Virus record (IMG/VR): IMGVR_UViG_3300045988_122518
DNA: 15,680 nt
Source of the DNA: a virus
Direction: 5' to 3' (one strand)
Under the pieces are notes generated by a model. The model was not told the DNA's origin. It saw nothing but the letters and a program-made list of their open reading frames with translations, and ran no database searches. Shown one piece after another: positions 2 to 14,556 of the stretch. Position 1 is the stretch's first letter. Every line of letters begins with the position of its first letter. The position numbers and the translations under genes are program-made.

Positions 2-832
2 GAAAGTGGAAGGATCACCAGAAGAAGCCATTGTAAAGTTAAAGTTGGACTGAATCTTACAGTTAGGAATAATAAATTCAGCAGGCATATCTACACCATC
101 TTGATTACGGAATAAAGTAGAAGCTTCAAGATAATAGTTACCACCAAATTTATCAGCAGTAATTTCAATCTGCTTAGCACCAGATTCACGCTCAGTGTAA
201 TAATCAACCATTACAGAGTCGCATTTAGCATAATCATTCTCTAAATCGTTAGTAGTATAAGCCGCTCCAGTAGAACGAGCAAATCCCTTTACGGTAACAC
301 TAAAACCAGTGTCTCCAGTGGTAACTCCTTCATGTGCTAAATAAGGCTCAGAAATAATTTCGCCATCCTTCATGAAGAAAACATAAACATAATCGTCATC
401 TTTATGTTCATTATCAAGATAAGGGGCATAAGAGACAGGAATAATTAATCCATCAGTTTTAATGTCTTTTTCAGTATTAGCAGGGACAATGTCTTTAGTC
501 TTATCAACAGTTTGAATAATATGTTGCTTAATCTTATTGTTAGCAGAAGCCTCAACAAGACCAGCACCGGAAAGAATCATGAAACCTTCAGGAGAAATAA
601 GAGCATCTTCCATTGTGAAGGTAACAGTACGCTCGCCTTCCCATGCGACTAAGTTAGTATTACCACGACCGCCCTGTGCGTATACGGTGGTAGCAGCGCC
701 TTCCATACTGGAAGTCTTTAAAGTGTCGAAATAAATAACTGGCTCGTTCTTATAAAATTGCTTATTACCAATCTTTTGATTAGCCTTTGCCTTTAAAACG
801 ACATCGCAAATTTCGCGTACACCAAATTTCAT
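2..832 (-). CDS. Phage structural protein, probably a tail (major tail or sheath-like) protein. The 5' end is complete (ATG at 830-832) and the 3' end is truncated by the window start; at least 277 codons; no in-frame TAG.
   Basis: Hand translation of the reverse strand gives an uninterrupted frame from ATG (plus 830-832) to position 2, with no TAA, TAG or TGA. The ribosome-binding site reads TAAGGAGGAAAAAAACCT-ATG. The sequence is Gly/Thr/Val-rich and looks beta-structural (MKFGVREICDVVLKAKANQKIGNKQFYKNEPVIYFDTLKTSSMEGAATTVYAQGGRGN...). It lies downstream of the capsid and connector genes in the late operon. The ORF track omits it because it runs off the window edge. The tail assignment rests on position and composition only. 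Confidence 0.7.
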   Translation of the reverse strand, partial: MKFGVREICDVVLKAKANQKIGNKQFYKNEPVIYFDTLKTSSMEGAATTVYAQGGRGNTNLVAWEGERTVTFTMEDALISPEGFMILSGAGLVEASANNKIKQHIIQTVDKTKDIVPANTEKDIKTDGLIIPVSYAPYLDNEHKDDDYVYVFFMKDGEIISEPYLAHEGVTTGDTGFSVTVKGFARSTGAAYTTNDLENDYAKCDSVMVDYYTERESGAKQIEITADKFGGNYYLEASTLFRNQDGVDMPAEFIIPNCKIQSNFNFTMASSGDPSTF

Positions 833-856
833 AGGTTTTTTTCCTCCTTAAAAAAT

Positions 857-1582
857 TTAATGGATATTTTTCATCCAGTTATCCGGCTTATTATCAGGCT
901 TCGCGCCTGCTAATCTAGACCGGATATCAATATCCCAATTAATATAAAGTTGATATCTTTCAACAAGGTCATAGAGTTGGAACATTGTTAAATCCATTAA
1001 ATCCTGTAAAGACATTGAATCAAGACCTATAGTAAGCATTGAAAGATACTAACTAAATATACTAGCATTAGCCGTGCCGTTTAATTCAGCGACACGTTGT
1101 CTACCTCGCATTAATTTATCGGCTATCTTTTTCGCGGCCGCATTTCCAGGATTGAATCCCATTTCTTGCGAAGCATTAGATTTAAAACAAAATATTTCTT
1201 TAATATATTCCTATAATATATTAAAATTGCTTTCGTCAATCATTATTTGTGGATCACCTTGTAAAACAATTGACCTCGGGGTAAATAAAACATTTTGCTT
1301 TGGAAACAATAATGTAAGAACCTACATAGATGCTTGTTTTTTATCGGCCATCTCTTTTTCTTTCATCATTGTCATAAATATCTAAAAATTATTTGTTTCT
1401 CTTAAAAGACTTTCGCCCGAATTCTCTATTATGTTTTTATCAATACATAAACACTAAATCCCCAAGAAAAGATCTTTTTCACCTATAAAAGAAATTTCTT
1501 TTATAGATGGCTAATGAATAGTGACTTCTAATTCAGGTATTGGTAAATCAATACCTGTCATTAAACCAAGTCTAATATCCAT
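857..1582 (-). CDS. Hypothetical structural-module protein, 241 aa, with 6 in-frame TAG sense codons (plus-strand cta at 1511, 1454, 1382, 1322, 1211, 1049). Its ATG overlaps the upstream TAA as TAATG.
   Basis: Track ORF 857..1039 continues upstream in frame through six TAG codons to ATG at plus 1580-1582. The first in-frame TGA lies upstream at 1589-1591. The stop is TAA at 857-859. The ATG shares a base with the TAA of the upstream gene (translational coupling). Product begins MDIRLGLMTGIDLPIPELEVTIH(Q)PSIK... Confidence 0.6.
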
Positions 1583-2163
1583 TATTCTTCAGTTCTTTTT
1601 TTAAAATCTTCTATAAATCTTTCCTCGTCATTAGGATTCGGCATAAATTTTTTATCTTCCTCGCCATGAACTGCCTGATACATAAGACATAAACCAGCAT
1701 ATTCATCAGTTAAAATAATTTGATTCGCACCAAGAAATTCTAACTTACCAATACCAGTTAAATGCGTTTTATCTATCATGCTATCAATTTCCGCGGCGAT
1801 GCGATAAGGGCGTAATTGATAATCTTTTAAATGCCATTGATCAAAATGACAAATAATATCGAATTCAACAATATTATCTCTAAACTCAGGATTTCCACTT
1901 TGTGTAAAATTATCAAAATTAATAATTAAATAATTTAATACACTTCCATCAACATAAAGTTTAGGAATTAACTTAATATTTTTATTAAATAATTGAATCA
2001 TTTGTTCATCATTTAAATCTGGTTTATCAATAGCATCTTTTGTTGTATAATACAATAAGCGCTTTAATCTCTCATTTTTACAGAGATGTTTTACAATAAT
2101 TTCTAAATCTTTTTCAACAGAAAGAAAACTTGATTTAGGTAAATTTACACCATTAATTTTCAT
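1582..2163 (-). CDS. Hypothetical protein, 193 aa (connector/tail region); no in-frame TAG.
   Basis: Intact standard-code ORF. ATG at 2161-2163 is preceded by AAGGAG at 11-nt spacing. Stop is TAA at 1582-1584. Confidence 0.8.
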   Translation of the reverse strand: MKINGVNLPKSSFLSVEKDLEIIVKHLCKNERLKRLLYYTTKDAIDKPDLNDEQMIQLFNKNIKLIPKLYVDGSVLNYLIINFDNFTQSGNPEFRDNIVEFDIICHFDQWHLKDYQLRPYRIAAEIDSMIDKTHLTGIGKLEFLGANQIILTDEYAGLCLMYQAVHGEEDKKFMPNPNDEERFIEDFKKRTEE

Positions 2164-2178
2164 AACACCTTTTACTCC

Positions 2179-3243
2179 TTAAAATAATGATTGAACTACG
2201 ATCGTTTTCTTATAGTCTCCATAACATAAATCGAACTATCCACTATATCCAGAAGTCCAACTTATTTCAACTGTTGGCTTTTTTGCTTCTTTAATAATTT
2301 TTAAAGAAACCGGCAACTTTTTATTATTCTTTATTTCCCATTCTAAAACAGCTTTACCATCAAAATAATAAGTATAAGTTTTTTTTGGAAAAATAAATGT
2401 TTCCCCTATAATATCAGTTGTCGTAGGATTTGGATCAATTGGTTCCGCAATTAAAGAACCAACAGTTTTATCATCTAAATTATCTTCCTACTCATTGGTA
2501 TAATATTCAGTCGCATTGATTTCTAAAATGCCAGGCATACTTATAGAATCTACAGCTTCAACACGCCAACAAATTAAATTATCTCCCTCATCCTAACCAT
2601 CTAAATAAAATTTAGTATAACGTTTAAAATATCTTAACGTATCTTTATTTTTTGGCATTAAAATATTTAATGAATAATTAGGATTATCTATACTAATTTC
2701 ATGTTTCTGAATATAATCAATTTTCGTTTCTACAGGACCGCGAATTGCTGCATAAGTAGATTTCTTCTCTCCCTCATCTACCCAATTTATTTTATAAGAG
2801 CATTTTCTAATATCTCCTCTAAAATAAGCTAATTCAGTCAAATCCTAAAGATAACAAATCCAATAGGTATTAGTTCCACACCATTCAAAAATATCTCCCG
2901 GTTTAAACTAATATTCATTTCCAACAGACAAAATCTTATCATCATAATCCTATTTCAATTTATTAGGATTAATCAAACATCTAATAGGTTTTTTATATTC
3001 CGCATCCTATTTAATAATTTCCGCGGCTTGGTATGAATTCCATACTGCTCTATCTAAACTTCTGCGTTTAGATAAAATCATACGCTCTTGTTGGCGGTTT
3101 CCGCCCATTTGACCGAGCCGGACCGCCATATAATTAACGCCTTCAACAGGGCTACCTTTAAAGGGTGGCTTATCATAAATTTCTAAGCGACCTTGCTATA
3201 ATCTAAAAGGTTGCTTACTACTATAATCAAACCCTGACGCCAT
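2179..3243 (-). CDS. Hypothetical structural protein, 354 aa, with 9 in-frame TAG sense codons (cta at 3196, 3007, 2950, 2908, 2845, 2593, 2488, 2236, 2197).
   Basis: Track ORF 2593..2841 is only the middle fragment. Hand translation extends the same frame upstream to ATG 3241-3243 (RBS AGGAGATAAATT-ATG; TAA directly upstream) and downstream to TAA 2179-2181. There is no TAA or TGA in between. Product begins MASGFDYSSKQPFRLQQGRLEIYDKPPFKGSPVEGVNYMAVRLGQMGG... and ends ...GDYKKTIV(Q)F(Q)SLF. Confidence 0.65.
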
Positions 3244-3568
3244 AATTTATCTCCTATAAAAGACTGATCGTTTCAAACACAGTCTTACGATAAAAATTAA
3301 AATCAGTATCTTGATTCTACAATCCCTCAAGTTTATTTAATAACTATAAATAAAGGGGTTCAGCGTTAAAAATCACACTAAACCCCACAATTTCATTTAT
3401 AACAGTTTCTAGCTATTTATGCCAATCTTCATTATTTTCGCGCATTGGAATTAATTTCCATAATTGATTGGTTAAGCGCAAACAATTTACTTTTATACTC
3501 TCTATTGGAATATCAAAATTATATTTAGTAATCATATCGACTTTTAAACACATCCCAATTAGATTCAT
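3227..3568 (-). CDS. Candidate small overlapping ORF, 72-113 aa depending on start (ATG at 3568, 3553, 3535 or 3445), with 4 TAG codons. Tentative.
   Basis: A second reverse frame has no TAA or TGA for about 119 codons (3584 down to 3227). That is unexpected for AT-rich non-coding DNA. It overlaps the 3' end of the 3525..4097 gene and the first 17 nt of the 2179..3243 gene. No convincing RBS. It contains the hairpin annotated separately. Confidence 0.3.
3331..3386 (-). terminator. Candidate intrinsic terminator for the minus strand: GGGGTT / AACCCC 6-bp stem with a 20-nt loop, followed on the minus strand by TTTATTTAT.
   Basis: Inverted repeat ggggtt (3355-3360) / aacccc (3381-3386). The T-rich run is the reverse complement of 3331-3354. 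The long loop makes it weak. Do not score this together with the overlapping-ORF call above: at most one of the two is right. Confidence 0.3.
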
Positions 3569-4097
3569 ACTCACCTTTGTTATTTAGACGTCTGCGTTTA
3601 TATAAACGCTACATATGGTGAGATTGTCTTTGGCATTCACCTAATAAATTCAATAGCTTTGATAGATGATTTGCCTAAGAAGTAAATTTAAAATCAGAGC
3701 CACTATATTTCATTCGAGTATTCTCAATTGAAGTGACTTGTCTTTGCGTCCAACCGCACATCATTAAAATAGCTAAAATATTAATTTCTTCTTCAGTTAG
3801 ATCACAATTAAAACTGGATCTATCAACTAAAACTTGAGGTTCTTCACCCGGTTCTGGAAGTTCCCCCCATACTGTTCCTACAATAAAATCATCCGGCATA
3901 GCATCAGATTCATTAATAGTAGCGACATCTAAATTATAATCTAAAAGATTTTTTCGCGGAAATTCAAATCCAGGAATAGCATCTATTATAAGATTCTATA
4001 AATCTCTTAGAGTATCTTCAGGGGTCAATTCCAGATACATATCATCAGTAACCTTGTTTAGAAAGCGATTATAAACAGCTGAGAATAATGTTCCCAC
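3525..4097 (-). CDS. Hypothetical head-tail connector-region protein, 190 aa, GTG start, 3 in-frame TAG (cta at 3996, 3675, 3609).
   Basis: Track ORF 3675..3899 extends upstream through TAG 3996 to GTG at 4095-4097. An in-frame TAA (4098-4100) lies directly 5' of the GTG, and AGGAGGG sits 7 nt upstream of it. The frame extends downstream through TAG 3675 and 3609 to TAA 3525-3527. Confidence 0.6.
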
Positions 4098-4116
4098 TTA
4101 ATCGCCCTCCTATAAA

Positions 4117-4710
4117 TTATTTCTTGGAGGAAGTTTCCTCGGTTTTATTAATTACTTTATATCCAGAACCGCTTGTGCGACGACCTTGAGTAGTAGGTTC
4201 TTCTCTTACTACACGACGCTTAGCAGCGGGTTCTTTCTCTACAATAGTATCTTCTTCTTTACTAGCGATATCATTAGCAATAGCTTTATCAACATCAAAC
4301 CCAGTTTTTTCCTTCAAAGCTCTACGCTTATTAATATCAGTAATAGGAAGGCTAACAGATAAATTCTTGATTAAGTCAATAATTCCAATAGGAGCAAAAT
4401 CAAGAGCATCTAAAAAAGCATCTAATGAGCCATTAAGAATTAAATCAGCAACTTGTTGCTCTGACATATTATATTCAGGTTCAGTATGAACATTAAGAGT
4501 ATGAGTTACTTCTGGCTCTAAAATTTGTAAAAAATTAGCAATTAATTCACGGCCGCCCGCCTGATAAGTTAACTTCTCTAGCTCACCAAATGGAATGCGC
4601 TTAGTTTCACCGGGCGCAAATTCACGACGCAAATTGGTATCAGGAATAGTATAAACAACTACGCTAGTGCTTCTATTTTTTACATTATAAATATCTTCAT
4701 TATTAATCAT
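4117..4710 (-). CDS. Hypothetical protein, 197 aa, with a basic C-terminal tail (…KRRVVREEPTTQGRRTSGSGYK…); no TAG.
   Basis: Intact ORF. ATG 4708-4710 follows AAGGAG at 10-nt spacing. Stop is TAA 4117-4119. It is the first gene after the capsid-gene terminator. Confidence 0.8.
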   Translation of the reverse strand: MINNEDIYNVKNRSTSVVVYTIPDTNLRREFAPGETKRIPFGELEKLTYQAGGRELIANFLQILEPEVTHTLNVHTEPEYNMSEQQVADLILNGSLDAFLDALDFAPIGIIDLIKNLSVSLPITDINKRRALKEKTGFDVDKAIANDIASKEEDTIVEKEPAAKRRVVREEPTTQGRRTSGSGYKVINKTEETSSKK

Positions 4711-4730
4711 TATTCAATTTCTCCTTTTAC

Positions 4731-4777
4731 TCATAAAACAAAAATATGGGGAGAGGGAGTTTAATCCCTTCTCCCCA
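4731..4777 (-). terminator. Rho-independent terminator immediately downstream of the major capsid gene (minus strand).
   Basis: Left arm GGGGAGAGGGAG (4748-4759), loop TTTAAT (4760-4765), right arm CCCTTCTCCCC (4766-4776). The stem is 11 bp with one mismatch. On the minus strand it is followed by ATATTTTTGTTTTAT. Confidence 0.7.
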
Positions 4778-4796
4778 TGGAATAATTTATATTAAA

Positions 4797-5903
4797 TTAG
4801 ACAGTACCGTCAAGGCGACCATCATAAGTGATAACCTTACCAGTAACTCCATCATAATTCCAAGTATACATCTGACCGAGAAGTGAAGTATCAACATAAG
4901 CACAGATGTTATTAGCGAGCATGCAAACTACGCCAACCTTCTTGTAAACCTGAATCTCACGAGAACGATCATAATTGTTGAACTCGTCAACAATAGTGCC
5001 ACCTTCAAAAGCAATCTTTACAGGCTTACCATCAGCGCCCGTAGGAATAACCCAAGCATAGCCAGGATCAATAACCTTACGAGTATTGGTTTCATCTTCA
5101 AAGCCCTGCTCAAGAATAATAACCTTAGTACCCTTGTAAGTGGCAAGACGACCATTATTCCAAAGCTCGTTCTTCATAGCTTCAGTATATCTCCAAGCCT
5201 CATGAGGAATCATCTTAACAGCAAACTCATAAGTACAATAAATAGTAGGAGTACCATAAGCAGAAGCAATAGTGATCAAACGATCCATAGCAGCTTCATC
5301 AAATCCGGCAGCCGCAACGCGGTTAGCAGGAGGAAGCTGATTGATAGAAGATCTAAGAGCAGCAGCGACTTCTTTATAAATAAGTTCATCCATACCATCC
5401 ATGATGATCTTGGTTACTTCACCAAAATCAACACGACCATCAAGGAATTCTTCGAAGCCAATCTGAGCAGCTCCGCCGATAGCGCTAGTACGTACCTCAA
5501 AGGCTTCATTCTCTTTAGGTCCGAGCTTGAAGACTTCATAAATACCAGCAAGACCAACGCGAGTTACAAACTGCTTAGCACGAGCACGATTATTAAGAGG
5601 ACGACGGAAAATAGGCTTATCACCCTGAGCGAAAGTTTTAACCTCAGCAAACTGATCATATTGCTGAATAACTTTCTTAGGAAGAACCTCATCAAGAGTC
5701 TGCTCAATCATAGAGAAAATAAGATTCTTATTTTCACGATAAAGAGCGTAAGTACCAGCCAACTCATTCATTTCATTACGAAGAGTTTCATTTAAGGCTT
5801 CATAACTAAGATTTTTTCCCTCATAACTATAAGCAACAGGAGCAGAAGGATCAGCCTTAGCAACTTGCTTCATAAGAGCAATTAAATTATTTTTATCTAA
5901 CAT
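4797..5903 (-). CDS. Major capsid protein (HK97-fold type), 368 aa; no in-frame TAG.
   Basis: Intact ORF with RBS AAAGGAG and TAA stop. The sequence (…RPLNNRARAKQFVTRVGLAGIYEVFKLGPKE…AMDRLITIASAYGTPTIYCTYEFAVKMIP…) is typical of caudoviral major capsid proteins. It lies downstream of the portal, a scaffold-like gene and a 305-aa head gene, and is followed by a strong terminator. The family assignment is from memory of capsid sequences, not from a search. Confidence 0.75.
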   Translation of the reverse strand: MLDKNNLIALMKQVAKADPSAPVAYSYEGKNLSYEALNETLRNEMNELAGTYALYRENKNLIFSMIEQTLDEVLPKKVIQQYDQFAEVKTFAQGDKPIFRRPLNNRARAKQFVTRVGLAGIYEVFKLGPKENEAFEVRTSAIGGAAQIGFEEFLDGRVDFGEVTKIIMDGMDELIYKEVAAALRSSINQLPPANRVAAAGFDEAAMDRLITIASAYGTPTIYCTYEFAVKMIPHEAWRYTEAMKNELWNNGRLATYKGTKVIILEQGFEDETNTRKVIDPGYAWVIPTGADGKPVKIAFEGGTIVDEFNNYDRSREIQVYKKVGVVCMLANNICAYVDTSLLGQMYTWNYDGVTGKVITYDGRLDGTV

Positions 5904-5920
5904 TATCCTTTTCTCCTTTC

Positions 5921-6838
5921 TTACTTAATACGCATTACCTTGACGCCCTTTTGACCATCAGGCATAGTATAAACCTTAACAACCTGCCAGGTCATTGAAT
6001 CGTCGCCAGTTTTGCTAAGAATACCCTTTGTAGCAGCAGAAGGAGAAAGCTTATCTCCAACAGCAAGAGTCTCTTCATTAATCATATTAGTAGTATAAAG
6101 ATCACCAATCATGGTCTTAAATACACGAGGAACCATAGAAGTACCAGATTCCATGAACTTCTCATGGTAGATACCCAACTTATGATATGGATCATTGGTC
6201 CAATTCATTTCATACATATCAGGAACATCAGTGAGAACCTTATCATAGTAATACTTTACAGGAACATTAGCAACCTGATGATTACTATCAAGAGTATATT
6301 CATTACCATCATAAGTAAATTTGCCGGTTTCATCAACATCATAAACACGACCAGCAATAGTAACAGTCTTTAAGCCCTGATCGGCAGAAACGGTCTGATT
6401 GATTAATTTATAGGTTTGACCCTTTTCATCAACACCATTCCAGAAACGACCACCATATTCAACCTCGGTATGCTCCCAATCATAAGGACTATAAACACGA
6501 GCCTGATAGTCATCTTTAATCATAGCAAATTCGCAGTCCCACTGCTTACTACCATCATAATGATCACGATAAAGCTTAATCTCGTTATAAACGAGCATCC
6601 ATTCACCTTCGCCAGTGAAGTTGACTTCACCGATACCATTACCATTAGCAGCATAGTCATACTTTACAAACTGACCGTTTTCAAGAATCTCAATGTCTTT
6701 ATTGGCAGGAAGTTGAGCATAGATTTGAGCATTTCTTTGTGCGGAAAGGTGATTAGGCTCGACCTGACCGTAACCAAACTCAACATACTTTGCCTGAGAC
6801 TTAATAGGAAGATTCTTATTCAAAAAGTCTTTAAACAT
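5921..6838 (-). CDS. Head-associated protein, 305 aa (possible decoration or auxiliary capsid protein); no TAG.
   Basis: Intact ORF. ATG 6836-6838 follows AAGGAGG at 9-nt spacing. Stop is TAA 5921-5923, 17 nt before the capsid gene RBS. Gly/Tyr/Asp-rich and beta-type composition. Confidence 0.75.
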   Translation of the reverse strand: MFKDFLNKNLPIKSQAKYVEFGYGQVEPNHLSAQRNAQIYAQLPANKDIEILENGQFVKYDYAANGNGIGEVNFTGEGEWMLVYNEIKLYRDHYDGSKQWDCEFAMIKDDYQARVYSPYDWEHTEVEYGGRFWNGVDEKGQTYKLINQTVSADQGLKTVTIAGRVYDVDETGKFTYDGNEYTLDSNHQVANVPVKYYYDKVLTDVPDMYEMNWTNDPYHKLGIYHEKFMESGTSMVPRVFKTMIGDLYTTNMINEETLAVGDKLSPSAATKGILSKTGDDSMTWQVVKVYTMPDGQKGVKVMRIK

Positions 6839-6855
6839 TTAGTATGTCCTCCTTA

Positions 6856-8430
6856 TTAATTTTTGTTGGCGGTAGCAAAAGCCGCCTTCACCCAAGCGGG
6901 CATATCATCATCTTCTGAACCATTATTGTTCAAATTAAAAGTAGTAGCACCATTGGGCTTATTATTTTCGTCAAGGTCGAAACTCACCTTGTTGCGAACA
7001 CAAATAACAGATAATTTAGCTTCAATATCATCAAGAGAATATTTATCAATATTTTCAACAACATCAGCCTTATCTTCATCAGAAAGCATATAGAATTTAG
7101 CAATCATATCTTCTTTATCTTTCTTTTCAGCAGCATTTTTAAATTCAGCAAGTGGAGCAATTTGCTCTTTCAAGCTATTATTTTCAGTTTCAAGAGCTGC
7201 GAATTTAGTCTGTAATTCATCATACTGAGCTTTAAGTTCAGTATATTCAACAACTTCTTCAAGAGAATAATTCTTCTTTTTCTTTTTATCATCATTCTCA
7301 CCATTGTCGCCTTTATCAGACTTATTAGAGGGCTCTCCATTATCAGGGTTCTTTTTATTATCATTGCCCTCTGATTTATTTTCACCGTCAGGATTATTTG
7401 ATTTATTATTTTTGTCCTCTTCTGCTTTCTTTTTTGAAGCATACTCATTTTCAAATTCTTCTACAGCATTAAGAGCAAACTGAGGCTCAGCCGCAGGAGC
7501 ATAATCAGTTACTTCAATCAAAGTATCAGAAGGAACGAAATTCTCTGCATCAAGAGAAAAATCCATACGATAGTATTTTTCATCCTGCTTATTCTTCAAA
7601 ACAGCAAACTTTTGTTCACCATCTTCACAAACACCTTCAATGCGATAAACAGAACAATAATTCTTTGGTTCGACAGGATACTTATTCTCAATATAAGAAT
7701 AAAGAGAATTCCACAAATTGTCGCCAATATTAACAGCGTATTGTGTAAACACTTTGGCTCCTCCTTCTTTCATAAATTCTTTAAGTTCATTCATCATGGA
7801 GAACAAAGTGTTCTTAAAACCATCATCGAATGAAAAATTCACATTGATTTGGGAGCCTTCGAAACAAGGTTCATTTTCTTCTCCCAAAATACAAAGTTTA
7901 GAAATAATTGCCTTATTTATAATAAAAAACTAAGGTTTTCCATTGCTATCTTTTGCCCACGTAGCATTTAATGTTTTTTCATCAAGCTCCATAGAATGAT
8001 TATTCCCTTTATCAACCACACGTTTACATTCAGGATACTAACCAGTCCACAAATAACCTTCAGTCATTAAATACTCACGTTCGGCAACACCATCATCCAA
8101 AAATTTCTAAAACCAAACTTTAGCTCCAAGATCAACAAAACCATAAGGGCGAGTATTATCTCTCATTCTAAATTCGCCGTTAGATAATTCAATTATCCTA
8201 TTATGTTCTTCAAAATCTTCAGCATTCTCATTAAAAAAGCCAACAATAGGACTGCCAGGAAGGCTATTAGCCATCTCAGTCGCTACATCTTTAGTAATTA
8301 CGCTTTTATTACGATTAGGTTTATCATCTACATAACAAACCTTAATTTGGCATTTAGAAATTAAAGGATTTACAGGAGTTATATTTATAAACTCACAAGG
8401 TGTATTTAATTTAATACTTGTATGTTTCAT
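6856..8430 (-). CDS. Head morphogenesis protein, 524 aa: an N-terminal globular domain (possible prohead protease or minor head domain) fused to an acidic coiled-coil scaffold-like C-terminal part. Has 3 in-frame TAG (cta at 8107, 8038, 7930).
   Basis: Track ORFs 8107..8430 and 6856..7887 share one frame and are joined by TAG codons with no TAA or TGA between them. ATG 8428-8430 follows AAGGAGG. Stop is TAA 6856-6858. The C-terminal half is K/D/E/N-rich low complexity plus heptad-like coiled coil (…ELKAQYDELQTKFAALETENNSLKEQIAPLAEF…). It sits between the portal and capsid genes. The protease idea rests on position only. Confidence 0.65.
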
Positions 8431-8439
8431 AAATCCTCC

Positions 8440-10089
8440 TTATTTCATTGCTTCTTTATTTTGAATAGTTTTTTCACTTTTCTAATCGTCAGGTTTTTCC
8501 GGACGCCCTGCCTCACCATTAGAAGTTTTAACAGTTCCAGAACCTGAGCTTCCTGAATTATTTTGAGTTTTATTATTAGATGATGAACCTTTTAAACCCA
8601 AAATATCTTCACTACCCATAGTAGAACTCATAAGAGGAGGAATCATAATTTCGCTTAAATGTAAAATCTCATTTTCAAAATGAGCTGCATTAAGAATAAA
8701 ACTCTACGAATGTCCAAGAGCAATCTAAGACAATAGTTTTGATTGTCCCATTTGTGCTTGTTCTTTATACATTTTAGAAAGTGTTTGATAATTATTCTAA
8801 GTAGTTTCTAATAAATAAAATCTAAAATTATATTTCTTATTACTACTCTTTTTTTCAATAATTCTATTAAAGAATATATTAAACTATAAAATTAAACTTC
8901 TTATTGTAGATTCATCATTTAATACTGATTTTTCTAAAGCCATATTACCATCAGTATTAAATAAATTCTATGAAATACCTAATGAATTATAAACACTACG
9001 TTCAACTTTAGCTAAATCATCTGTCGTTGTAGTAGTATTCTTATCAGACATATCAATAGAATCTACATCAGTAAATGTAGTTAAAACATCTACTCCAATA
9101 GCCCTCTATAACATCTAAACGGCATTATTATGGATATCTCTGGCTTCATCAACATCAAATATCAAATCACCATTTTTATCCATTGGGAGCTTTTGGACTA
9201 AAATTTTAAGCAACTTCTACATTTGTTTCTTGCGGTCAAGATCTTGCGCTGCATCTAAATCCATAATAGTAGGAATCGAATTTACAAAAATAGGAACATC
9301 ACTATTATTAATATTAAATTTAATACAATTTTCTGGCTCAAGAACATACCAACTACCAGTATGCTAGCATCCAACCGCTTCTTCTAAAGCAAGTTTTCCT
9401 TGCTTATATAAAACATAACCTTTAGCAAATTCTTCTGGGAATAATTTTAATACTTTTAAACGATAATTCATATCTCTAAAAGTATCAAAAAATCGCATAT
9501 CAAATTCAACAACTGGGGTATTATTTACACTATAACGTGTTCTACAATATCTAACTGGTAATTCTTGTAAAATTAGATTTTTCTCAGAAGGAACTATATA
9601 TCCATAATAGCATCCATTTTTAACGACTTGTAAAGCAATATCTCCACAAATCTTTTTAATATAACTATTATCAAAATAATTTAACATTCTATAAAAATCT
9701 TTTAAAACTTTTTCTTCTTTTACATTATCATCATAAGTCTCAGCCGCGATATACCAATCATAACGATATAAAAAAGCAACATAATTACAAACTCGTTGAT
9801 ATACACCACTTATATCATAATAAAAATTAGAAATATAACGCAAAGCATTTAAATCTTTTTCTGCAAGCGCGCGAAGCACATCAGGTTTCGTGATAATACG
9901 AGTTTGACCTGGGTATCTAATCTTACTATAATCACCAAGTTTTAAAATAGCGTCATCTAAAGTTTTTGTGCCAACTTTTATTTTTCTATTGGCATAGTCC
10001 ATGGTATCATTATAATTATATTCATAACGACCATTATAAATATCAAAACCTTTAGCATGAATCTATTCATTACGATCTTGCGTATCCAA
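8440..10089 (-). CDS. Portal protein, 549 aa, TTG start, 11 in-frame TAG (cta at 10063, 9364, 9217, 9115, 9106, 8968, 8884, 8797, 8725, 8704, 8482).
   Basis: Track ORF 9364..10002 is only the N-terminal third. The frame continues with no TAA or TGA down to TAA 8440-8442. Upstream, AAAGGAGGTGG followed by 7 nt and TTG at 10087-10089 is a much better start than the internal ATG 10002. An in-frame TGA lies at 10120-10122. It is the large gene directly after the terminase. Size and position fit a portal. Confidence 0.65.
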
Positions 10090-10102
10090 AGTTCCACCTC
10101 CT

Positions 10103-10459
10103 TTAATAACCTGCTAATTTCATTATATAATCATAAGAAATAAGGTTTTCGTCGGTATATGGAATCTCTATTAATCTAAAATCATGTAAAGCGCAAAAAC
10201 GTCTTTTTTGATTATCATTATATTGCTACTGGTATAAACCGCGCTTTCCACCAAATTTAGAACTGGCTTCATAATGCTATTTTCCCTAATACTCAATAAT
10301 GAAATCAATTTTTCCATCATCATCAAATATAACAAAATCAAAACGAAGCGGACGCCCGCTTGGGCTTTTTAAATCTGGAAAGATGTATTCCATTTTAAAA
10401 GGTAGTCCTGCTTCTTCTAAGATTTCTTCAATTTTAATTTCTCCTCTTGAAGCACGCAT
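10103..10459 (-). CDS. Small nuclease-like protein, 118 aa, between terminase and portal: putative PD-(D/E)XK / Vsr-like (DUF559-type) homing endonuclease. Has 3 in-frame TAG (cta at 10286, 10277, 10226).
   Basis: ATG 10457-10459 follows AAGGAGGG at 6-nt spacing. Stop is TAA 10103-10105. Motif …RPLRFDFVIFDDDGKIDFIIEY(Q)GK(Q)HY… resembles the (P)D…ExK/QH core of Vsr/DUF559 restriction-endonuclease-like folds. This is recalled from memory and needs an HMM check. Confidence 0.5.
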
Positions 10460-10471
10460 TTTCCACCCTCC

Positions 10472-12211
10472 TTAATTTAAAAAGCACCAATCAGCCGCAT
10501 TAAACTTTTTACGTTTTTTCTTTTTATCTTCTTCAAGTTTTAAATAATATAATCCATATTCAAAAGCCGAAAATTTATCTTTACGAATTCCGCGATTTGC
10601 CTATTTTAAAATAATATTAATACCTTCATTTTCTTCGCGTAAATTCATCATTTCTTCTTTTAATATGGAGGTTAAAGTAAATGGTTTTAAATAATCTGCC
10701 CTTTGTTCAGAAGTCATTTTTGAACCTTTTTGAGTAGCTAATAATTTTTCTTTAGCTGTTCTCTCATCTATTAAGAATTTTACCTTACCCGCTTGTAATT
10801 GAGTCTGAGCATTAGCATGACATTCAGTATTTATTGGAGCATTTGCTTTAATAACATACATAGCATCAAATTGAGTATTTGGTGTGCGATATTTTTTATA
10901 ATATCCATCATCATCATTCTCAACACCAAAATCAGGTAAAAATTCACCATCTTCATCATTTTGAGATTTTACCATATAATCCAAAAGTCCAATACCTAAA
11001 CCATTACCATCTATAACCAAAGTTTTAGCTTTATATTTATAAAATAATTTCTTTAATTTAATAGCCTGATCTTCAAAATGATCATCTGACATAGTATACA
11101 TATTTACTAAAGACTTAATAGCTGGACCTTGGGCTTGTGGTGTTACTTTAAATACACAAACTACTGAATCGCATCCTTTACGACCTACATCTACAGAAAG
11201 CACATAATAAGCTTGCGCGCCCGCACGTCCAGAAGCTTCATACTCAGGCTATAATAATTTTCTATTTCTATCAAAATGCTCTCCATTAAAGAAAGCATCC
11301 TCAACAGTTCCTGACCACTTAGATTCATATTCACGTTCAAATGAAGCTTCATTATAAGTTCCTTCATTCTTTTGGTCAGTAATAAATGTTTTACTTTGTA
11401 ATCCTACTGCAACAGGAGTTCGCCATGTTCCGCCTAATACCATACAACGATCGGGCTAAGTCACCATACGAACTAAGAAACCAATAAGTCTATCATAAGG
11501 GAATGTGCCCTTATAACCAGCAGTAGTAATATAAATTTGTGATTTATTTAATGGCTCTTGTTCATTAGTAGTGCCGTCTTTGGCTCTACGAGAAATTGCC
11601 ATAACAGGAATAATAACTTCACGAAGAATAGCATCATCAATACCAACACATTCTTCCATTAATCCACCATGACGACGTTGACCACGAGTGCTTTCACGAG
11701 CCGCAAGGTTATCCAAAACTGAACCATTTTTAAATACATATCTAACTTTATCTTTTCCTTCAAGAGTTTTTCCTCGGCTCCAATCAATTTCTCGATTAAA
11801 GCTTGGAATAAGTTCGCATATTTCTTGAACTTTATCATGAAGAATACTAGCACCTTGCTCTTTACCTCCAGAAGTAACGAACAAATGTGCGCCAGGATAT
11901 AAAATACATCTAATCATTAATGTCATAACAGACAAAAATGATTTAGAATAAGCACGAGGAAAAACCGCATAAACATACTGATAACGCATAACAGAACGGA
12001 GAAATACTCTCTAATAAAAATAAAAATTAAATTCTCCATCTTTTATTTCAGTGCGTCTTCCTCGCACCATAAAATCTACAAATAAATCAGGATATTCTCT
12101 CCAAAAGGCAACGTATTTGCGGATGGTAGGCATTACCGCTTCTACTCGCTCCGGTGATAGACCTATTTTTCTACGGCTATCACTTAACTACAATAAATCT
12201 TGTAATGCCAT
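10472..12211 (-). CDS. terL: Terminase large subunit, 579 aa, 5 in-frame TAG (cta at 12188, 12011, 11456, 11249, 10601).
   Basis: Track ORFs 11456..11989, 11249..11443 and 10601..11203 are one frame joined by TAG. The N-terminus has an ATPase with a deviant Walker A (VFPRAYSKSF). The C-terminus has an RNase-H-like nuclease (LSVDVGRKGCDSVVCVF … TLVIDGNGLGIGLLDYMV). ATG 12209-12211 overlaps the upstream TAA as TAATG. Stop is TAA 10472-10474. Confidence 0.8.
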
Positions 12212-13398
12212 TATTTATCCAAACCCTATAAAAACTCATTATCTTGCGCAGATTCCTATTCTTTAAATTCCTCAAAATCTGCGTAATCACTATCTTTGAT
12301 AGTTTTTTCAAGTTCTTCAATACTTAAATCAGCATCATCAACGATATCGCTTTCCGCGTTCTTTGCTTTCTCTTCATCTTCTTTAGCATTTTCGCGCAAA
12401 GCTTTTTCTACCATTGTACTGATATTAGTTTCATCTTCAATAAGAGTGCGAGTATAACGTTGCATATCTTGAATAGTCAAGTCCACTTTATCATGTGGCT
12501 ATTCAACATAATATCTTTCAATATATCCTTCTTTTTCACATAATTCAATTAATTCGCCAATTGAATCAACAAATTCGCCTGATTCTGCTTTATTTTGGGC
12601 AGCAGTAAATTTACCAGACTTCATTAAGCTATCATATACTTTGCTCATCTTTTGGAAACCTTCAATATCACCAATATCGATCAATTGATTTGCCTTTAAA
12701 GATGTCTTACATATTAATTTTAGCGTATCTTTATGTCCGGCGCCTTGAATATCATAAGAAGCCATCATTTCTTCATATAACTATTCAAGTTTAACCCATT
12801 CTTCAGGTTTATAAGTTTTGCCCCATTTAAGTCTTAAATAAGTGCGGTCTTCATCAGTTAAATCTAATTCTTGTTCCACTTCACCACTCTATTGTGCGAA
12901 ATAATCTTCCGTAGGGGCATCAGGTGGTGGAGCATAAACCGGCTCTTTTAATTCTCCTTCTGGAATAGTAATAGAACTTTTTTCAATAGCAGTTGCAATC
13001 TATTGAGCATCATACCCTTGACGTTTCATAGTTTGCTCTAATTTATTATTTGCCATCTACTGTAAAAATTCTGTATCTTTCCAACGATAATCTTTAAACT
13101 ATTTGAGTTTCATTTTTGACAAATAACGTCCAAGAATTGTCATACCGGTCATAGACTGCGGATCGCGTCCATATTTTTCCATTAATTTATTCCATTCATC
13201 TGGAACATAAGGAACATCCGCTTCTTGTAAAATCCATAAATAAGTATCTGGATTCCAATTATCGACGTGCATTGTCATACATTTTTTGCACATGGGGAAT
13301 TTACCATTATTAGGATATTTTTCTAAATTATTAGATGAATAAAATTCCGTGCCATTCATTGTGCGATTACATTTTTCGCAATAATATGTTTCAGCCAT
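12211..13398 (-). CDS. Putative terminase small subunit or DNA-recognition protein, 395 aa, with an N-terminal CxxC…CxxC zinc ribbon and an acidic C-terminus. Has 8 in-frame TAG (cta at 13099, 13057, 13000, 12889, 12781, 12499, 12256, 12226).
   Basis: Track ORFs 13099..13398, 12499..12768 and 12256..12486 share one frame joined by TAG. ATG 13396-13398 follows AAAGGAGAA. Stop TAA 12211-12213 overlaps the terL ATG, giving translational coupling. The TerS call rests on position only. Confidence 0.55.
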
Positions 13399-13447: not shown

Positions 13448-14503
13448 TTAAGATTTTTTGGCCTTAGAATTTCGACAACTTTTACAAATACTATAAAAGC
13501 CATCTTTACTTGTTTTATTTTTACTAAAATATTTATTATGAGCTAATTTTATTTTACCACAACGACTACATTTTTTATATTTACCTTTTTCAACATTTAA
13601 ATAATAATTATCTAAATATTCATCTTCCGCAGTCGAAGCAATTAATTTTGGAATTTTATTACGCCATAAACTTGAAATATATTCAAGACTATGTTTAATA
13701 CCAAATTCCATTTGTATTTTCTCTTGAATGTCAATATTTTGTAAACCATCAATTTTATATTCAACGATTCTATCATAAAGAGGATAATTAGCTAAAGCTT
13801 TATCACAAAGCTTATCAAAATCCTCCATTAAATACCATAAGTCTTTATCATATTCGCCCCAACTATCTTGCTTTAATCGGGAATAATTATATAAAACCGC
13901 AGAACATATTTCAGGTCTTAATAAACTAATTCCATCAGGAATGGGAAAACCATCATCATCAAAAATAAATGTTTTATCATCTAATGGAATATAAGACTTT
14001 GATCTGGTTAATTTTGTAGGCACTATTGGACGACGATAAGCATTTTTCATAACATACTAATCTTTACGCATTTCAATAAGAGCCTTTTTAATAACAAAAG
14101 CATCTTTGCCTTCTGTTACTTTTAATTTAGCCTCCCAAACATTAATGGCTTCTCTTAACTAATTTAAACTTGGTATCTCTTCTAAATCTTTTTTTGTAAT
14201 TGTAATATGTGGTTGAAATATTGTATTTCTATTATCTGTAATTAAATTATAAATTCCATCTTCGCCATTTTCAAGTTGGGAAACAAGACCTTCAAAAGAA
14301 GTCTCACGCTTATTAACTGTAGCCATACGATTATCAGTTAATAATTTTTTCTCCTTTTTTTCTTGTTTCTCCATACAAAGAACCAAATAGTCTGCTAAAA
14401 TTTCTAAATACTTTTCAGGCGGATCTGGATTATCAGCCAAAATTTGTTCGACTAATTGATTTCTTTCTTCTGGAGTTTGTAAAGAATAATCAAGTTTTAT
14501 CAT
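13448..14503 (-). CDS. DNA-binding protein, 351 aa, with a C-terminal CxxC…DG…CKxC zinc ribbon. It is the first gene of the late operon and a possible regulator. Has 2 in-frame TAG (cta at 14159, 14057).
   Basis: Track ORFs 14159..14503 and 13448..14050 share one frame joined by TAG. ATG 14501-14503 follows GGAGGT at 5-nt spacing, directly downstream of a consensus promoter. Stop is TAA 13448-13450. C-terminus reads …KKCSRCGKIKLAHNKYFSKNKTSKDGFYSICKSCRNS. Confidence 0.6.
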
Positions 14504-14527: not shown

Positions 14528-14556
14528 ATTATACTCGAAAAAATTTTTTTTGTCAA
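14528..14556 (-). promoter_or_regulatory. Sigma-70-type promoter for the minus-strand late operon: TTGACA – 17 nt – TATAAT, all 12 consensus positions matched.
   Basis: Reverse complement of 14551-14556 is TTGACA. Reverse complement of 14528-14533 is TATAAT. The spacer is 17 nt. The minus-strand gene starts at 14503 about 25 nt downstream. Confidence 0.6.

What the first reader, a model, noticed from the sequence alone, without database searches (positions are those of the whole stretch)
2..6838. TAG codons are absent from the capsid and several structural genes but dense in packaging, portal and connector genes
The major capsid protein (368 codons), the 305-aa head protein, the 197-aa and 193-aa proteins and the partial tail gene (277 codons) contain zero TAG. 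The portal has 11 in 549 codons, the 354-aa structural protein 9, the TerS candidate 8, TerL 5 and the 241-aa protein 6. All lie in the same operons. The skew is therefore not early versus late. It looks like selection against the reassigned codon in the most highly expressed virion components, for example if suppressor-tRNA supply is limiting. Alternatively it may act as a dosage control that lowers output of low-copy proteins. Borges et al. (2022) reported recoded-stop enrichment in late/lytic genes; this within-module skew goes the other way.
Basis: partly seen in the sequence, partly recalled or inferred. Interest (0 to 1): 0.6.

Follow-up and report, generated by a model that had tools for sequence, protein, structure and literature searches.

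The report
Abundant virion genes avoid recoded TAG
In this gut phage, which reads the stop codon TAG as glutamine, the capsid, tail-tube and two neighbouring head genes have stayed free of TAG across long evolutionary time while neighbouring genes in the same operon are full of it, so the reassigned codon probably still carries a cost that matters only in the most heavily translated genes.

Summary
The window holds 15 tightly packed minus-strand genes of an SPbeta-like, roughly 195-kb gut siphophage in which TAG encodes Gln. There are 53 in-frame TAGs. None lies in the tail tube, g3, g7, the major capsid protein (MCP) or g9, which together make 1340 of 4754 codons (permutation P about 5e-6).

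For four of these genes (tube, g7, MCP, g9) the depletion holds in 15 lineages that are near saturation at synonymous sites. It also holds for MCP and tube in the distant complete genome Phass-1. These four genes share a separate codon bias (AAG, CGY, NNC, CAG). That bias is also present, more weakly, in standard-code relatives.

TAG does arise in these genes, but only as rare variants. g3's zero is not conserved.

Elsewhere TAG behaves like a neutral Gln codon. It is about as frequent as CAA, its sites turn over, and it shows no positional or context bias. The tape measure carries 79 TAGs.

The best reading is expression-dependent purifying selection against a slightly costly reassigned codon. 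Dosage control, chance, composition and recent gene transfer are disfavoured. This is a modest, previously unreported extension of known phage recoding biology. The same rule is known in ciliates.

The parts
2..832 (-). g1, tail tube protein (N-terminal 277 codons; the gene runs off the window). 0 TAG. High-bias class.
   Evidence: phrog_2729 virion structural protein, E=1e-50. Precomputed Pfam YomU_Tube on the orthologue in L001-L010. AAG/Lys 0.65, CGY/Arg 1.0. 0.4 TAG per 1000 codons over 58 recoded relatives.
857..1582 (-). g2, 241 aa (YomV-like). 6 in-frame TAG.
   Evidence: 5 of the 6 TAG sites are invariant Gln in standard-code relatives.
1582..2163 (-). g3, 193 aa (YomW-like virion protein). 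0 TAG here, but not a conserved TAG-free gene.
   Evidence: Lowest codon bias in the window (0.11). 2-6 TAGs in other alleles and lineages, 11.9 per 1000 codons on average. The g1-g3 block is mosaic: pS 0.46-0.58 against L003 versus 0.2 or less in the other genes.
2179..3243 (-). g4, 354 aa structural protein.
3227..3568 (-). g5, 113 aa. 4 TAG. The only gene in the window that ends in TGA.
3525..4097 (-). g6, 190 aa. 3 TAG. GTG start.
4117..4710 (-). g7, 197 aa, function unknown (YonA position by synteny). 0 TAG. Intermediate-to-high codon bias.
   Evidence: 1.6 TAG per 1000 codons over 64 recoded relatives. All 16 TAG-bearing alignment columns are rare, in 3 or fewer genomes. AAG/Lys 0.47. 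AF2 model unusable, pLDDT 47.
4797..5903 (-). g8, major capsid protein, 368 aa. 0 TAG. 10 of 12 Gln codons are CAG.
   Evidence: Precomputed Pfam PF27364 YonB. tblastn hit to the annotated major capsid protein of Bacillus phage PJN02, with matching synteny. Weak, below-cut-off NCBIfam HK97-fold MCP hit, E=4e-4. 0.5 TAG per 1000 codons in 71 relatives.
5921..6838 (-). g9, 305-aa head-module protein (YonC position, between the protease/scaffold-like g10 and the MCP). 0 TAG. 9 of 14 Gln codons are CAG.
   Evidence: pN 0.15-0.31 to distant lineages, so it is not a conserved protein. AF2 model unusable, pLDDT 46.
6856..8430 (-). g10, 524 aa, YonD-like (prohead protease/scaffold position) with a coiled coil and a low-complexity tract. 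3 TAG (intermediate class).
8440..10089 (-). g11, portal protein, 549 aa. TTG start. 11 TAG.
   Evidence: phrog_2739 portal, E=7e-82..
10103..10459 (-). g12, HNH/homing-endonuclease-like protein, 118 aa, between TerL and portal. 3 TAG.
   Evidence: phrog_9084 and phrog_559, E about 1e-26.
10472..12211 (-). g13, terminase large subunit, 579 aa. 5 TAG.
   Evidence: phrog_2, E=9e-20, among other hits. PJN02 synteny.
12211..13398 (-). g14, YonG-like TerS candidate, 395 aa. 8 TAG.
   Evidence: Precomputed Pfam YonG_N. The PJN02 gene at the same position is annotated small terminase.
13448..14503 (-). g15, sigma-factor-like protein with a C-terminal zinc ribbon, 351 aa. First gene of the operon. 2 TAG.
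   Evidence: phrog_5767 sigma factor, E=1e-54.
14528..14556 (-). Consensus sigma-70-type promoter (TTGACA-17-TATAAT, 12/12) upstream of g15. Candidate start of the operon that holds all 15 genes.
   Evidence: This is a consensus match only; function not shown.

Best explanation
The window is the head and proximal-tail part of the late operon of an SPbeta-like, roughly 195-kb gut phage in which TAG is decoded as glutamine by a phage-encoded amber-suppressor tRNA.

In most late genes TAG behaves as a near-neutral synonymous Gln codon. AT-biased mutation along the path CAA <-> CAG <-> TAG has driven it to about the frequency of CAA.

In the few genes translated in the largest amounts, each TAG carries a small cost. 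These genes are the major capsid protein, the tail tube and two neighbouring head-module proteins, g9 and g7. The inferred source of the cost is residual competition from the host's UAG-reading release factor (RF1) or slower decoding, giving lost yield and truncated subunits. The cost scales with the number of times the codon is translated. Purifying selection therefore removes TAG from these genes and keeps CAG, and to a lesser degree CAA.

Shown here:
- the recoding and the TAG = Gln assignment;
- the statistical reality of the skew;
- its conservation over saturated synonymous divergence;
- the rarity of the TAG variants that do occur in these genes;
- the independent codon bias of the same genes;
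- the neutral-like behaviour of TAG elsewhere.

Inferred: that codon bias and protein role reflect expression level, and that the cost comes from incomplete suppression.
For: 1. **Recoding.** TAG read-through turns fragmented ORFs into a tight gene array. About 33 of the 53 window TAG sites are invariant Gln in 20 standard-code relatives. No gene ends in TAG. A tRNA with anticodon CUA lies on contig IMGVR_UViG_3300045988_110853, whose MCP is 100% identical to the window's.

2. **The skew is not chance.** P = 5e-6 to 5e-4.

3. **Conservation.** TAG per 1000 codons over 71 recoded relatives is 0.4 in tube, 0.5 in MCP, 0.6 in g9 and 1.6 in g7, against 6-32 in the other genes. In each of 15 lineages that differ at 38-56% of portal third positions (one closer pair, the window and L026, at 22%), Fisher tests give P = 5e-3 to 1e-8.

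4. **TAG is specifically disfavoured.** The depletion is not just a preference for CAG. Pooled TAG/CAA is 0.08 in the four genes against 0.59 elsewhere.

5. **Polymorphism signature.** All 5, 16, 9 and 9 TAG-bearing alignment columns in tube, g7, MCP and g9 occur in 3 or fewer of 71 genomes. Other genes have 4-17 columns present in 10 or more genomes.

6. **Independent codon bias.** AAG/Lys is 0.65-0.76, CGY/Arg 0.86-1.0 and NNC 0.21-0.27 in tube, MCP and g9, with g7 intermediate. Other genes show about 0.1-0.3, 0.1-0.8 and 0.04-0.19. The CAG preference of the same four genes exists in standard-code relatives too (0.42-0.74 against 0.16-0.34).

7. **Not recent transfer and not protein conservation.** pS to distant lineages is 0.42-0.70 in these genes. 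pN of tube, g7 and g9 is as high as in other genes.

8. **Independent genome.** In Phass-1 (MCP 50% identical) the MCP has 0 TAG with 15 CAG and 0 CAA. The tube has 0 TAG, the g2 and g4 homologues have 6 and 7, and the largest gene has 110. Genome-wide rho between codon bias and TAG use is -0.26 to -0.34, P = 4e-4 to 6e-3.

9. **Rest of the late operon in a 97.8%-identical contig.** The tape measure has 79 TAGs in 2770 codons, the 1105-aa tail gene has 24, and six further tail genes have 1-14. No other gene of 100 codons or more is TAG-free. Over 19 late genes, rho = -0.47 to -0.49, P = 0.03-0.04.

10. **TAG looks neutral elsewhere.** In low-bias genes TAG makes up 0.35-0.65 of Gln codons. No site is fixed as TAG (maximum 11 of 14 lineages). 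Position along genes is uniform (KS P = 0.26). The +4 context is identical to that of CAG.

11. **Precedent.** Reassigned stop codons are used less in highly expressed genes of a ciliate (PMC10553269).
Against: - Expression and virion copy number were not measured. The roles of g9 and g7 are unknown because both AF2 models failed.
- Inside the window alone, the rank correlation between codon bias and TAG use is not significant (rho -0.43, P = 0.11). The pattern is two classes rather than a smooth gradient.
- g3 is TAG-free here despite the lowest bias in the window.
- A tape measure with 79 TAGs, and 110 in the largest Phass-1 gene, means per-codon read-through must be very high, so the cost per TAG must be small.
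- In crAss-like phages MCP genes do carry recoded stops (PMC7886860), so the rule is not universal.
- Relatives are not fully independent. TAG counts per conserved Gln column are about 2-fold overdispersed.
- The suppressor tRNA was found in a close relative, not in the window itself.
Confidence: 0.65

Rival explanations
1. By-product of codon optimisation. The four genes are selected for CAG, for example to match a phage- or host-supplied tRNA-Gln(CUG). TAG is lost only because it is one of two non-optimal Gln codons, with no cost specific to the reassigned stop.
For: The same genes prefer CAG in standard-code relatives. They also prefer G-ending Lys and Glu codons and CGY. Phass-1 encodes tRNA-Gln(CUG), Lys(CUU), Glu(CUC) and Arg(ACG).
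Against: CAA, the other non-optimal codon, persists at 30-40% of Gln codons in these genes while TAG is about 1-2%. Pooled TAG/CAA is 0.08 against 0.59 in the other genes, and TAG versus CAA alone is significant in most lineages. With symmetric mutational input from CAG, an equally non-optimal TAG should be about as common as CAA.
Confidence: 0.15
2. Dosage control. TAG codons are positively selected in low-copy proteins (portal, terminase, tape measure, connectors) to reduce their output relative to capsid and tube from one polycistronic mRNA.
For: TAG-rich genes are low-copy or non-structural, and TAG-free genes are high-copy. If suppression were about 95-99% per codon, 79 TAGs would cut tape-measure yield to about 2-45% (my own arithmetic). 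That is in the direction of virion stoichiometry.
Against: - TAG density, not TAG count, is roughly constant in low-bias genes: TAG is 0.35-0.65 of Gln codons whatever the gene length or copy number. That matches the mutational equilibrium TAG ~ CAA >> CAG.
- No TAG site is conserved across lineages.
- There is no 5' enrichment, which would minimise wasted translation (KS P = 0.26).
- There is no special +4 context.
- Attenuation by premature termination in a 2770-codon gene would be very wasteful.
Confidence: 0.12
3. Mosaic origin. The TAG-free genes were recently acquired by recombination from standard-code relatives and have not yet had time to accumulate TAG.
For: Standard-code relatives exist with 76-88% identical MCPs. 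Recombination is visible in the g1-g3 block, where L003 has pS 0.46-0.58 against the window versus 0.2 or less in the other genes. This probably explains why g3 has 0 TAG in some alleles and 4 in others.
Against: - pS between the window and every distant lineage, recoded or standard, is 0.42-0.70 in MCP, g9, g7 and tube. That is close to the other genes, so there is no recent shared ancestry.
- The depletion is seen in all 15 diverged recoded lineages and in Phass-1.
- The rare TAG variants that do occur never spread.
Confidence: 0.04
4. Chance or base composition. The zeros follow from gene length, low Gln content or higher GC of these genes.
For: MCP, g9 and tube have higher overall GC (0.38-0.40 against about 0.30). 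In Phass-1, TAGs concentrate in low-GC genes. g3's zero alone is compatible with chance.
Against: - Permutation nulls by codons and by Gln-type codons give P = 5e-6 to 0.04.
- GC3 of MCP, tube and g9 (0.27-0.32) overlaps that of the TAG-rich g2 and g5 (0.27-0.28), and g7 has GC3 of 0.20.
- The pattern replicates across lineages.
Confidence: 0.03

Closest known systems
Stop-codon-recoded (code 15, TAG->Gln) gut phages with gene-family-specific use of the recoded codon (Borges et al., bioRxiv 10.1101/2021.08.26.457843; Yutin et al. 2021, PMC7886860; Peters et al. 2022, PMC9523058)
   Same: - In-frame TAG is decoded as Gln.
- The phage encodes a suppressor tRNA(CUA).
- TAG-rich late structural genes sit next to mostly TAG-free small genes upstream.
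- Close standard-code relatives exist.
- Borges et al. already compared TAG with CAA/CAG per protein family and reported families that prefer it (lysis) or avoid it (integrase).
   Different: - Here the avoidance is inside the late structural operon and concerns the most abundant virion proteins.
- It coincides with a general codon bias in the same genes.
- The word 'capsid' does not occur in that preprint.
- In crAss-like phages MCP genes do carry recoded stops.
- The explanation here is translation cost, not timing of expression.
Phage Phass-1 / proposed Phassvirus (OQ749652; PMC10607447)
   Same: - It is the closest deposited genome: MCP 50%, TerL 45% and portal 39% identical, with the same gene order.
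- It is TAG-recoded with three tRNA-Sup(CUA).
- Its MCP and tube are also TAG-free, while TerL, the tape measure and the g2 and g4 homologues are not.
- The paper lists TerL and the tape measure as TAG-containing among its marker proteins, implying that MCP is not, without comment.
   Different: - Phass-1 is 136 kb with 44.5% GC. The window's lineage is about 195 kb, and the window is about 32% GC.
- Only distant protein similarity, and no nucleotide match.
- The paper does not analyse the distribution of TAG among genes.
Bacillus prophage SPbeta and SPbeta-like siphophages (Spbetavirus; Bacillus phage PJN02, Enterococcus phage EF1 group)
   Same: - Gene order YonG/TerS, TerL, portal (YonE), YonD, YonC position, YonB/MCP and onward to YomW, YomV and YomU tube, then a very long tape measure.
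- MCP homology is detectable by tblastn at 22-40% identity.
- A sigma-like or RNAP-type late regulator lies upstream.
   Different: - The cultured SPbeta-like phages use the standard code.
- The window's phage is uncultured, gut-derived and recoded.
- An HNH gene is inserted between TerL and portal.
Reduced use of reassigned stop codons in highly expressed genes of ciliates (e.g. Oligohymenophorea sp. PL0344, PMC10553269)
   Same: The same rule applies. The reassigned codon is used genome-wide but less in highly expressed genes, which also have higher GC and a distinct codon bias. Those authors also suggest translational inefficiency.
   Different: The ciliate case is a cellular genome with a permanently changed release factor. 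Here a virus must impose the code on a standard-code host within one infection, so competition with the host's UAG-reading release factor is a plausible specific cause.

Membership tests
Code 15 (TAG->Gln) recoded phage | In-frame TAG codons interrupt otherwise intact, conserved phage genes, and coding density rises when TAG is read through | tested here: met
   53 in-frame TAGs in 10 of 15 genes, including portal and TerL. ORFs of at least 100 aa cover 11.9 kb under the standard code and 19.2 kb with TAG read through, and they tile the minus strand.
Code 15 (TAG->Gln) recoded phage | TAG positions align with glutamine in homologues that use the standard code | tested here: met
   About 33 of 53 sites are invariant Gln in 20 standard-code relatives. 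Overall, 638 of about 1000 aligned residues are Q, encoded by CAA (492) or CAG (146).
Code 15 (TAG->Gln) recoded phage | TAG is not used as a terminator | tested here: met
   The 14 complete genes end in TAA (13) or TGA (1).
Code 15 (TAG->Gln) recoded phage | A suppressor tRNA with anticodon CUA is encoded by the phage | tested here: inconclusive
   No tRNA in the window or in about 50 kb stitched from the closest contig. A tRNA(CUA) is present on contig 3300045988_110853, whose MCP is 100% identical to the window's, and on 3300021254_000022 (MCP 83%). Phass-1 has three. So it is present in the lineage but not shown for this exact genome.
SPbeta-like siphophage structural module | Homology and synteny of the head-to-tail-tube genes with SPbeta yonG...yomU | tested here: met
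   Precomputed Pfam YonG_N, YonD_N, YonB, YomW, YomV_2nd and YomU_Tube on the orthologues, in SPbeta order, followed by PhageMin_Tail on a roughly 2750-aa tape measure. Same order in PJN02. The local Pfam copy lacks these new families.
[quoted passage not shown] | The same genes show a consistent bias across several amino acids, and the bias is conserved in relatives | tested here: met
   AAG, GAG, CGY, NNC and CAG are all raised in tube, MCP and g9, with g7 intermediate. This holds in the window, in 12 diverged recoded lineages and more weakly in 4 standard-code lineages. The bias is extreme in Phass-1 MCP and tube.
[quoted passage not shown] | The biased genes are those with the highest measured expression, and the preferred codons match the abundant tRNAs | not testable with these tools
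   There are no expression data, and the host is unknown (Bacillota inferred from Shine-Dalgarno sites and MAG labels). Phass-1 carries tRNAs for CAG, AAG, GAG and CGY, which is suggestive only.
Recoding as a timer of late/lysis genes (Borges model) | Early genes are compatible with the standard code, late and lysis genes need the alternative code, and lysis genes are the most enriched | tested here: inconclusive
   RBS-supported small genes upstream of the operon are mostly TAG-free, and all large late genes except the four carry TAG. Lysis and replication genes of this genome were not reached.

The most novel reading that the evidence does not exclude
In phages that impose a TAG->Gln code on a standard-code host, suppression is never complete. 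The residual termination is strong enough to shape genome architecture in two ways. It purges TAG from the few proteins made in hundreds of copies. It also lets TAG load, together with one polycistronic mRNA, help set the steep stoichiometry of virion parts, from capsid and tube down through portal to tape measure. TAG density would then be a readable, evolvable expression dial and a proxy for protein abundance in uncultured recoded phages.
Probability: 0.15. Interest if true: 0.6.

Novelty: new variant of a known kind. Interest (0 to 1): 0.4.

Why it matters
- It gives comparative evidence that a reassigned stop codon stays slightly deleterious in a virus that must convert its host's code during each infection. 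It also shows where that cost becomes visible.
- It adds a second layer to the current picture of phage recoding. That picture contrasts early genes with late and lysis genes. Here there is a split within the late module between abundant and rare proteins.
- It suggests a practical rule for annotating uncultured recoded phages. TAG-free, codon-biased late genes are candidates for the major virion proteins. It may also explain why a major capsid protein was still identified under the standard code in 57% of code-15 genomes (PMC11210395).
- It provides a simple experimental test of suppression efficiency: exchange CAG and TAG in the capsid gene.

Tried and rejected
1. **Megablast of the window against GenBank phages** found no match. 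Protein-mode search then found Phass-1 and the SPbeta-like phages.

2. **PDB sequence searches** with g8, g9, g1, g7, g3 and an MCP profile found nothing significant. The only near-hit was the tube against tail-tube chains at E = 0.055.

3. **AlphaFold2 models of g9 and g7**, built from shallow alignments, came out with pLDDT 46 and 47. No fold search was run, so their roles remain unknown.

4. **The local Pfam library** lacks the new Yon/Yom families, so it returned nothing for g1-g9. NCBIfam gave only a weak, below-cut-off HK97 MCP hit for g8.

5. **An exact look-up of the 142-aa plus-strand ORF** at 15034-15462 found no record.

6. **Searching for the suppressor tRNA through the Phass-1 NrdD neighbour** found only Phass-1 relatives. 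Walking 50 kb along contig 118370 found no tRNA. A pattern built on the anticodon arm of the Phass-1 suppressors finally hit contigs of the window's lineage.

7. **Explanations tested and rejected:**
   - GC3 or base composition;
   - high protein conservation, which holds only for MCP;
   - recent transfer;
   - positional, context or site-conservation signals of a regulatory role for TAG.

8. **Including g3 in the TAG-free class** was rejected.

Full report
**What the window is**

All genes lie on the minus strand. Under the standard code the region is fragmented. When TAG is read through, 15 ORFs tile positions 2-14506 with gaps of at most 86 nt. Most have AGGAG-type ribosome binding sites. 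Stop codons are TAA (13) or TGA (1) and never TAG.

PHROG profiles identify the portal, the large terminase, an HNH endonuclease, a sigma-like protein and two virion structural proteins. Gene calls stored with identical or near-identical contigs carry the new Pfam families YonG_N, YonD_N, YonB, YomW, YomV_2nd and YomU_Tube, followed by a tape measure of about 2750 aa. That is the head-to-tail module of Bacillus prophage SPbeta, in SPbeta order.

The depositors of Bacillus phage PJN02 annotate the syntenic genes as small terminase, terminase, portal, prohead protease, major capsid protein and tail tube. g8 also has a weak, below-cut-off match to an HK97-fold capsid model.

The exact MCP sequence is indexed in 1068 blocks of the public assembly collection, on contigs up to about 197 kb. 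The closest contig, IMGVR_UViG_3300045988_118370, is 97.8% identical to the window. The closest deposited genome is the TAG-recoded phage Phass-1, whose MCP is 50% identical.

**TAG is glutamine**

I compared the window genes with 20 relatives that have no in-frame TAG. About 33 of the 53 TAG sites are invariant Gln in all of them, encoded by CAA or CAG.

A tRNA with anticodon CUA sits in a tRNA cluster on a contig whose MCP is 100% identical to the window's. It closely resembles one of the three Phass-1 suppressors, including the insertion in the variable region. No tRNA lies in the window itself.

**Checking the observation**

Five genes totalling 1340 of 4754 codons have no TAG. The rest have 53, or 15.5 per 1000 codons.

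I distributed 53 TAGs at random over the genes:
- Weighted by codon number, a chi-square as large as observed occurs with P = 5e-4.
- At least 1340 codons falling in TAG-free genes occurs with P = 5e-6.
- Weighted by Gln-type codons, the corresponding values are 0.037 and 1.4e-4.

GC3 does not separate the classes.

**Is the skew conserved?**

I collected 90 loci around MCP homologues that are 76-100% identical to the window's MCP. Portal identity across the same loci is 53-97%. Of the sequences analysed (these loci plus the window), 71 are recoded and 20 use the standard code.

Over the recoded relatives, TAG per 1000 codons is:
- tube 0.4
- MCP 0.5
- g9 0.6
- g7 1.6
- all other genes 6-32, including g3 at 11.9

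In each of 15 lineages, the four-gene set is depleted of TAG relative to CAA+CAG (Fisher P = 5e-3 to 1e-8). All but one pair of these lineages differ at 38-56% of portal third positions.

Pooled TAG/CAA is 0.08 in the four genes and 0.59 elsewhere. TAG is therefore disfavoured well beyond the other non-preferred Gln codon.

TAG does arise in these genes. However, all 39 TAG-bearing alignment columns occur in 3 or fewer of 71 genomes. The other genes have 4-17 columns present in 10 or more genomes. That is the pattern expected for slightly deleterious variants.

**Rivals tested**

*Recent transfer from standard-code relatives.* This is excluded. Synonymous differences between the window and every distant lineage are 0.42-0.70 in the four genes, only slightly below the other genes.

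*Protein conservation.* This explains nothing. Only the MCP is conserved (pN 0.04-0.18). Tube, g7 and g9 evolve as fast as their neighbours (pN about 0.15-0.38).

*Mosaicism.* The same table shows mosaicism in the g1-g3 block. This accounts for g3 alleles with 0, 2 or 4 TAGs among otherwise near-identical genomes. g3 also has the lowest codon bias in the window, so I remove it from the class.

**An independent marker of expression**

I used only Lys, Glu, Arg and the NNY two-fold codons, so Gln codons play no part. Tube, MCP and g9 stand apart, with g7 intermediate:

| Measure | Tube, MCP, g9 | Other genes |
|---|---|---|
| AAG/Lys | 0.65-0.76 | 0.11-0.34 |
| CGY/Arg | 0.86-1.0 | lower and variable |
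| NNC | 0.21-0.27 | 0.04-0.19 |

The bias is present in 12 diverged recoded lineages and, more weakly, in standard-code relatives. In the latter the same four genes also prefer CAG (0.42-0.74 against 0.16-0.34). The codon-usage class thus exists with and without recoding, and TAG avoidance is superimposed on it.

**More of the genome**

I stitched 50.6 kb of contig 118370 from four loci.
- The tape measure has 79 TAGs in 2770 codons.
- The next tail gene has 24 in 1105 codons.
- A 356-aa gene after the tube has 12.
- Six further tail genes have 1-14.
- No other late gene of 100 codons or more is TAG-free.

Over 19 late-operon genes, codon bias and TAG use correlate at rho = -0.47 to -0.49 (P = 0.03-0.04). 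Within the window's 15 genes alone, rho is -0.43 (P = 0.11). The pattern is two classes plus a few intermediates (g10, g15, TerL). RBS-supported small genes upstream of the operon are mostly TAG-free.

In the complete Phass-1 genome, using my own code-15 gene calls:
- MCP has 0 TAG, 0 CAA and 15 CAG.
- Tube has 0 TAG.
- The g2 and g4 homologues have 6 and 7 TAGs.
- The largest gene has 110 TAGs.
- Genome-wide rho is -0.26 to -0.34 (P = 4e-4 to 6e-3).

**How TAG behaves where it is common**

In low-bias genes TAG makes up 0.35-0.65 of Gln codons, about equal to CAA, and CAG is rare. AT-biased mutation predicts exactly this on the only stop-free path, CAA <-> CAG <-> TAG. That last step is my inference.

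Across 39 invariant-Gln columns, no site is fixed as TAG (maximum 11 of 14 lineages). Counts are about 2-fold overdispersed relative to a binomial. TAGs are uniformly placed along genes (KS P = 0.26). Their +4 base distribution equals that of CAG. Nothing suggests that individual TAGs are maintained for regulation.

**Mechanism**

The best-supported account is mutation-selection balance. TAG is a near-neutral Gln codon in most late genes. It carries a small cost per translation event that becomes visible to selection only in the most heavily translated genes.

The likely source of the cost is residual competition from the host's UAG-reading release factor (RF1) or slower decoding by the suppressor. 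Either would give lost yield and truncated subunits. This step is inferred, not shown.

A tape-measure gene with 79 TAGs means read-through per codon must be very efficient. My arithmetic: 0.99^79 is about 0.45, and 0.95^79 is about 0.02. The cost per codon is therefore small, and 'limiting suppressor supply' in a strong sense is unlikely.

**Comparison with the literature**

- Borges et al. described late and lysis enrichment, tested protein families for preference or avoidance of the recoded codon, and reported lysis (prefer) and integrase (avoid). Capsid is not mentioned in the preprint.
- Yutin et al. used recoded stops in MCP, TerL and portal as evidence of recoding in crAss-like phages, so MCP avoidance is not universal.
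- The Phass-1 paper lists TerL and the tape measure as TAG-containing markers and does not comment on the MCP.
- In ciliates, reassigned stop codons are used less in highly expressed genes.

I found no paper in the held library that reports this within-module depletion in phages. That is an absence in that library only.

**Verdict**

The main interpretation is supported for four of the five genes. The dosage-control alternative and the claimed conflict with Borges et al. are not supported. The finding is a modest, well-replicated extension of known recoding biology.

Noticed in passing
window 10103-10459 (- strand): A 118-aa HNH/homing-endonuclease-like gene sits between the large terminase and the portal. 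It carries 3 TAGs, so it has resided in a recoded genome long enough to acquire them. Phass-1 has a homologue at the same place with 5 TAGs.
   Followed up: partly
window 14528-14556 (- strand) and 14639-14667 (+ strand): A perfect sigma-70 consensus promoter (TTGACA-17-TATAAT) lies just upstream of g15. An 11/12 match points the other way. Together they look like a divergent promoter region between the late operon and small oppositely oriented genes.
   Followed up: no
L036-L050 (part), L068-L071, L073, L074, L090: Twenty relatives with 76-88% identical MCPs and the same gene order have no in-frame TAG at all. The genetic code has therefore switched within this phage group. The direction of the switch was not determined.
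   Followed up: partly
window 2-2163 versus L003, L006, L013 and others: The tube-g2-g3 block is mosaic among otherwise near-identical genomes. pS is 0.46-0.58 in this block against 0.2 or less in the other genes. The g3 alleles carry 0, 2 or 4 TAGs.
   Followed up: partly
L222 7726-7805 (contig IMGVR_UViG_3300045988_110853): ARAGORN calls a tRNA with anticodon UCA (labelled SeC) close to the amber suppressor in a TAG-recoded genome. The sequence looks atypical and may be a false call. If it is real, it would be an opal suppressor, although TGA still serves as a stop (g5).
   Followed up: no
L222 9078-9167; L092 12442-12532: The amber-suppressor tRNA of the window's lineage and Phass-1 'sup1' share an insertion of about 20 nt in the variable region (tRNAs of 90-91 nt). 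This suggests a common origin for the suppressor in phages whose MCPs are only 50% identical.
   Followed up: no
L093 (Phass-1 100001-135976): The Phass-1 tRNA array includes tRNA-Gln(CUG), Lys(CUU), Glu(CUC) and Arg(ACG). These decode exactly the codons preferred in the TAG-free, codon-biased capsid and tube genes. The phage may supply the tRNAs for its own highly expressed genes.
   Followed up: partly
L091-L093 (Phass-1, OQ749652): In Phass-1, 225 of the 317 TAGs in the 108 genes analysed lie in the lowest codon-bias fifth of those genes, many of them low-GC (0.27-0.36 against 0.445 genome-wide). Among them are a 3150-codon gene (110 TAGs) and a 1880-codon gene (25 TAGs). The GenBank CDS table is fragmented as if called with the standard code.
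   Followed up: partly
window 6856-8430 (- strand): g10 (YonD-like, at the prohead protease/scaffold position) contains a leucine-zipper-like coiled coil (residues about 394-429) after a long Lys/Asn/Asp/Glu-rich low-complexity tract. It has an intermediate TAG load (3 TAGs).
   Followed up: no
L127-L139 (genome contigs): Relatives of this phage are binned into MAGs labelled Mollicutes, Clostridium, Lachnospiraceae, Erysipelotrichaceae, Bacilli and even Muribaculaceae. This is probably mis-binning of phage contigs. The true host is unknown. Bacillota is suggested by the strong Shine-Dalgarno sites and the SPbeta-like relatives.
   Followed up: no
window 3227-3568 and 3525-4097 (- strand): g6 and g5 overlap by 44 nt, and g5 overlaps g4 by 17 nt. 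g5 is the only gene ending in TGA. g6 starts with GTG and the portal with TTG, whereas all TAG-free genes start with ATG behind a strong AGGAG site.
   Followed up: no
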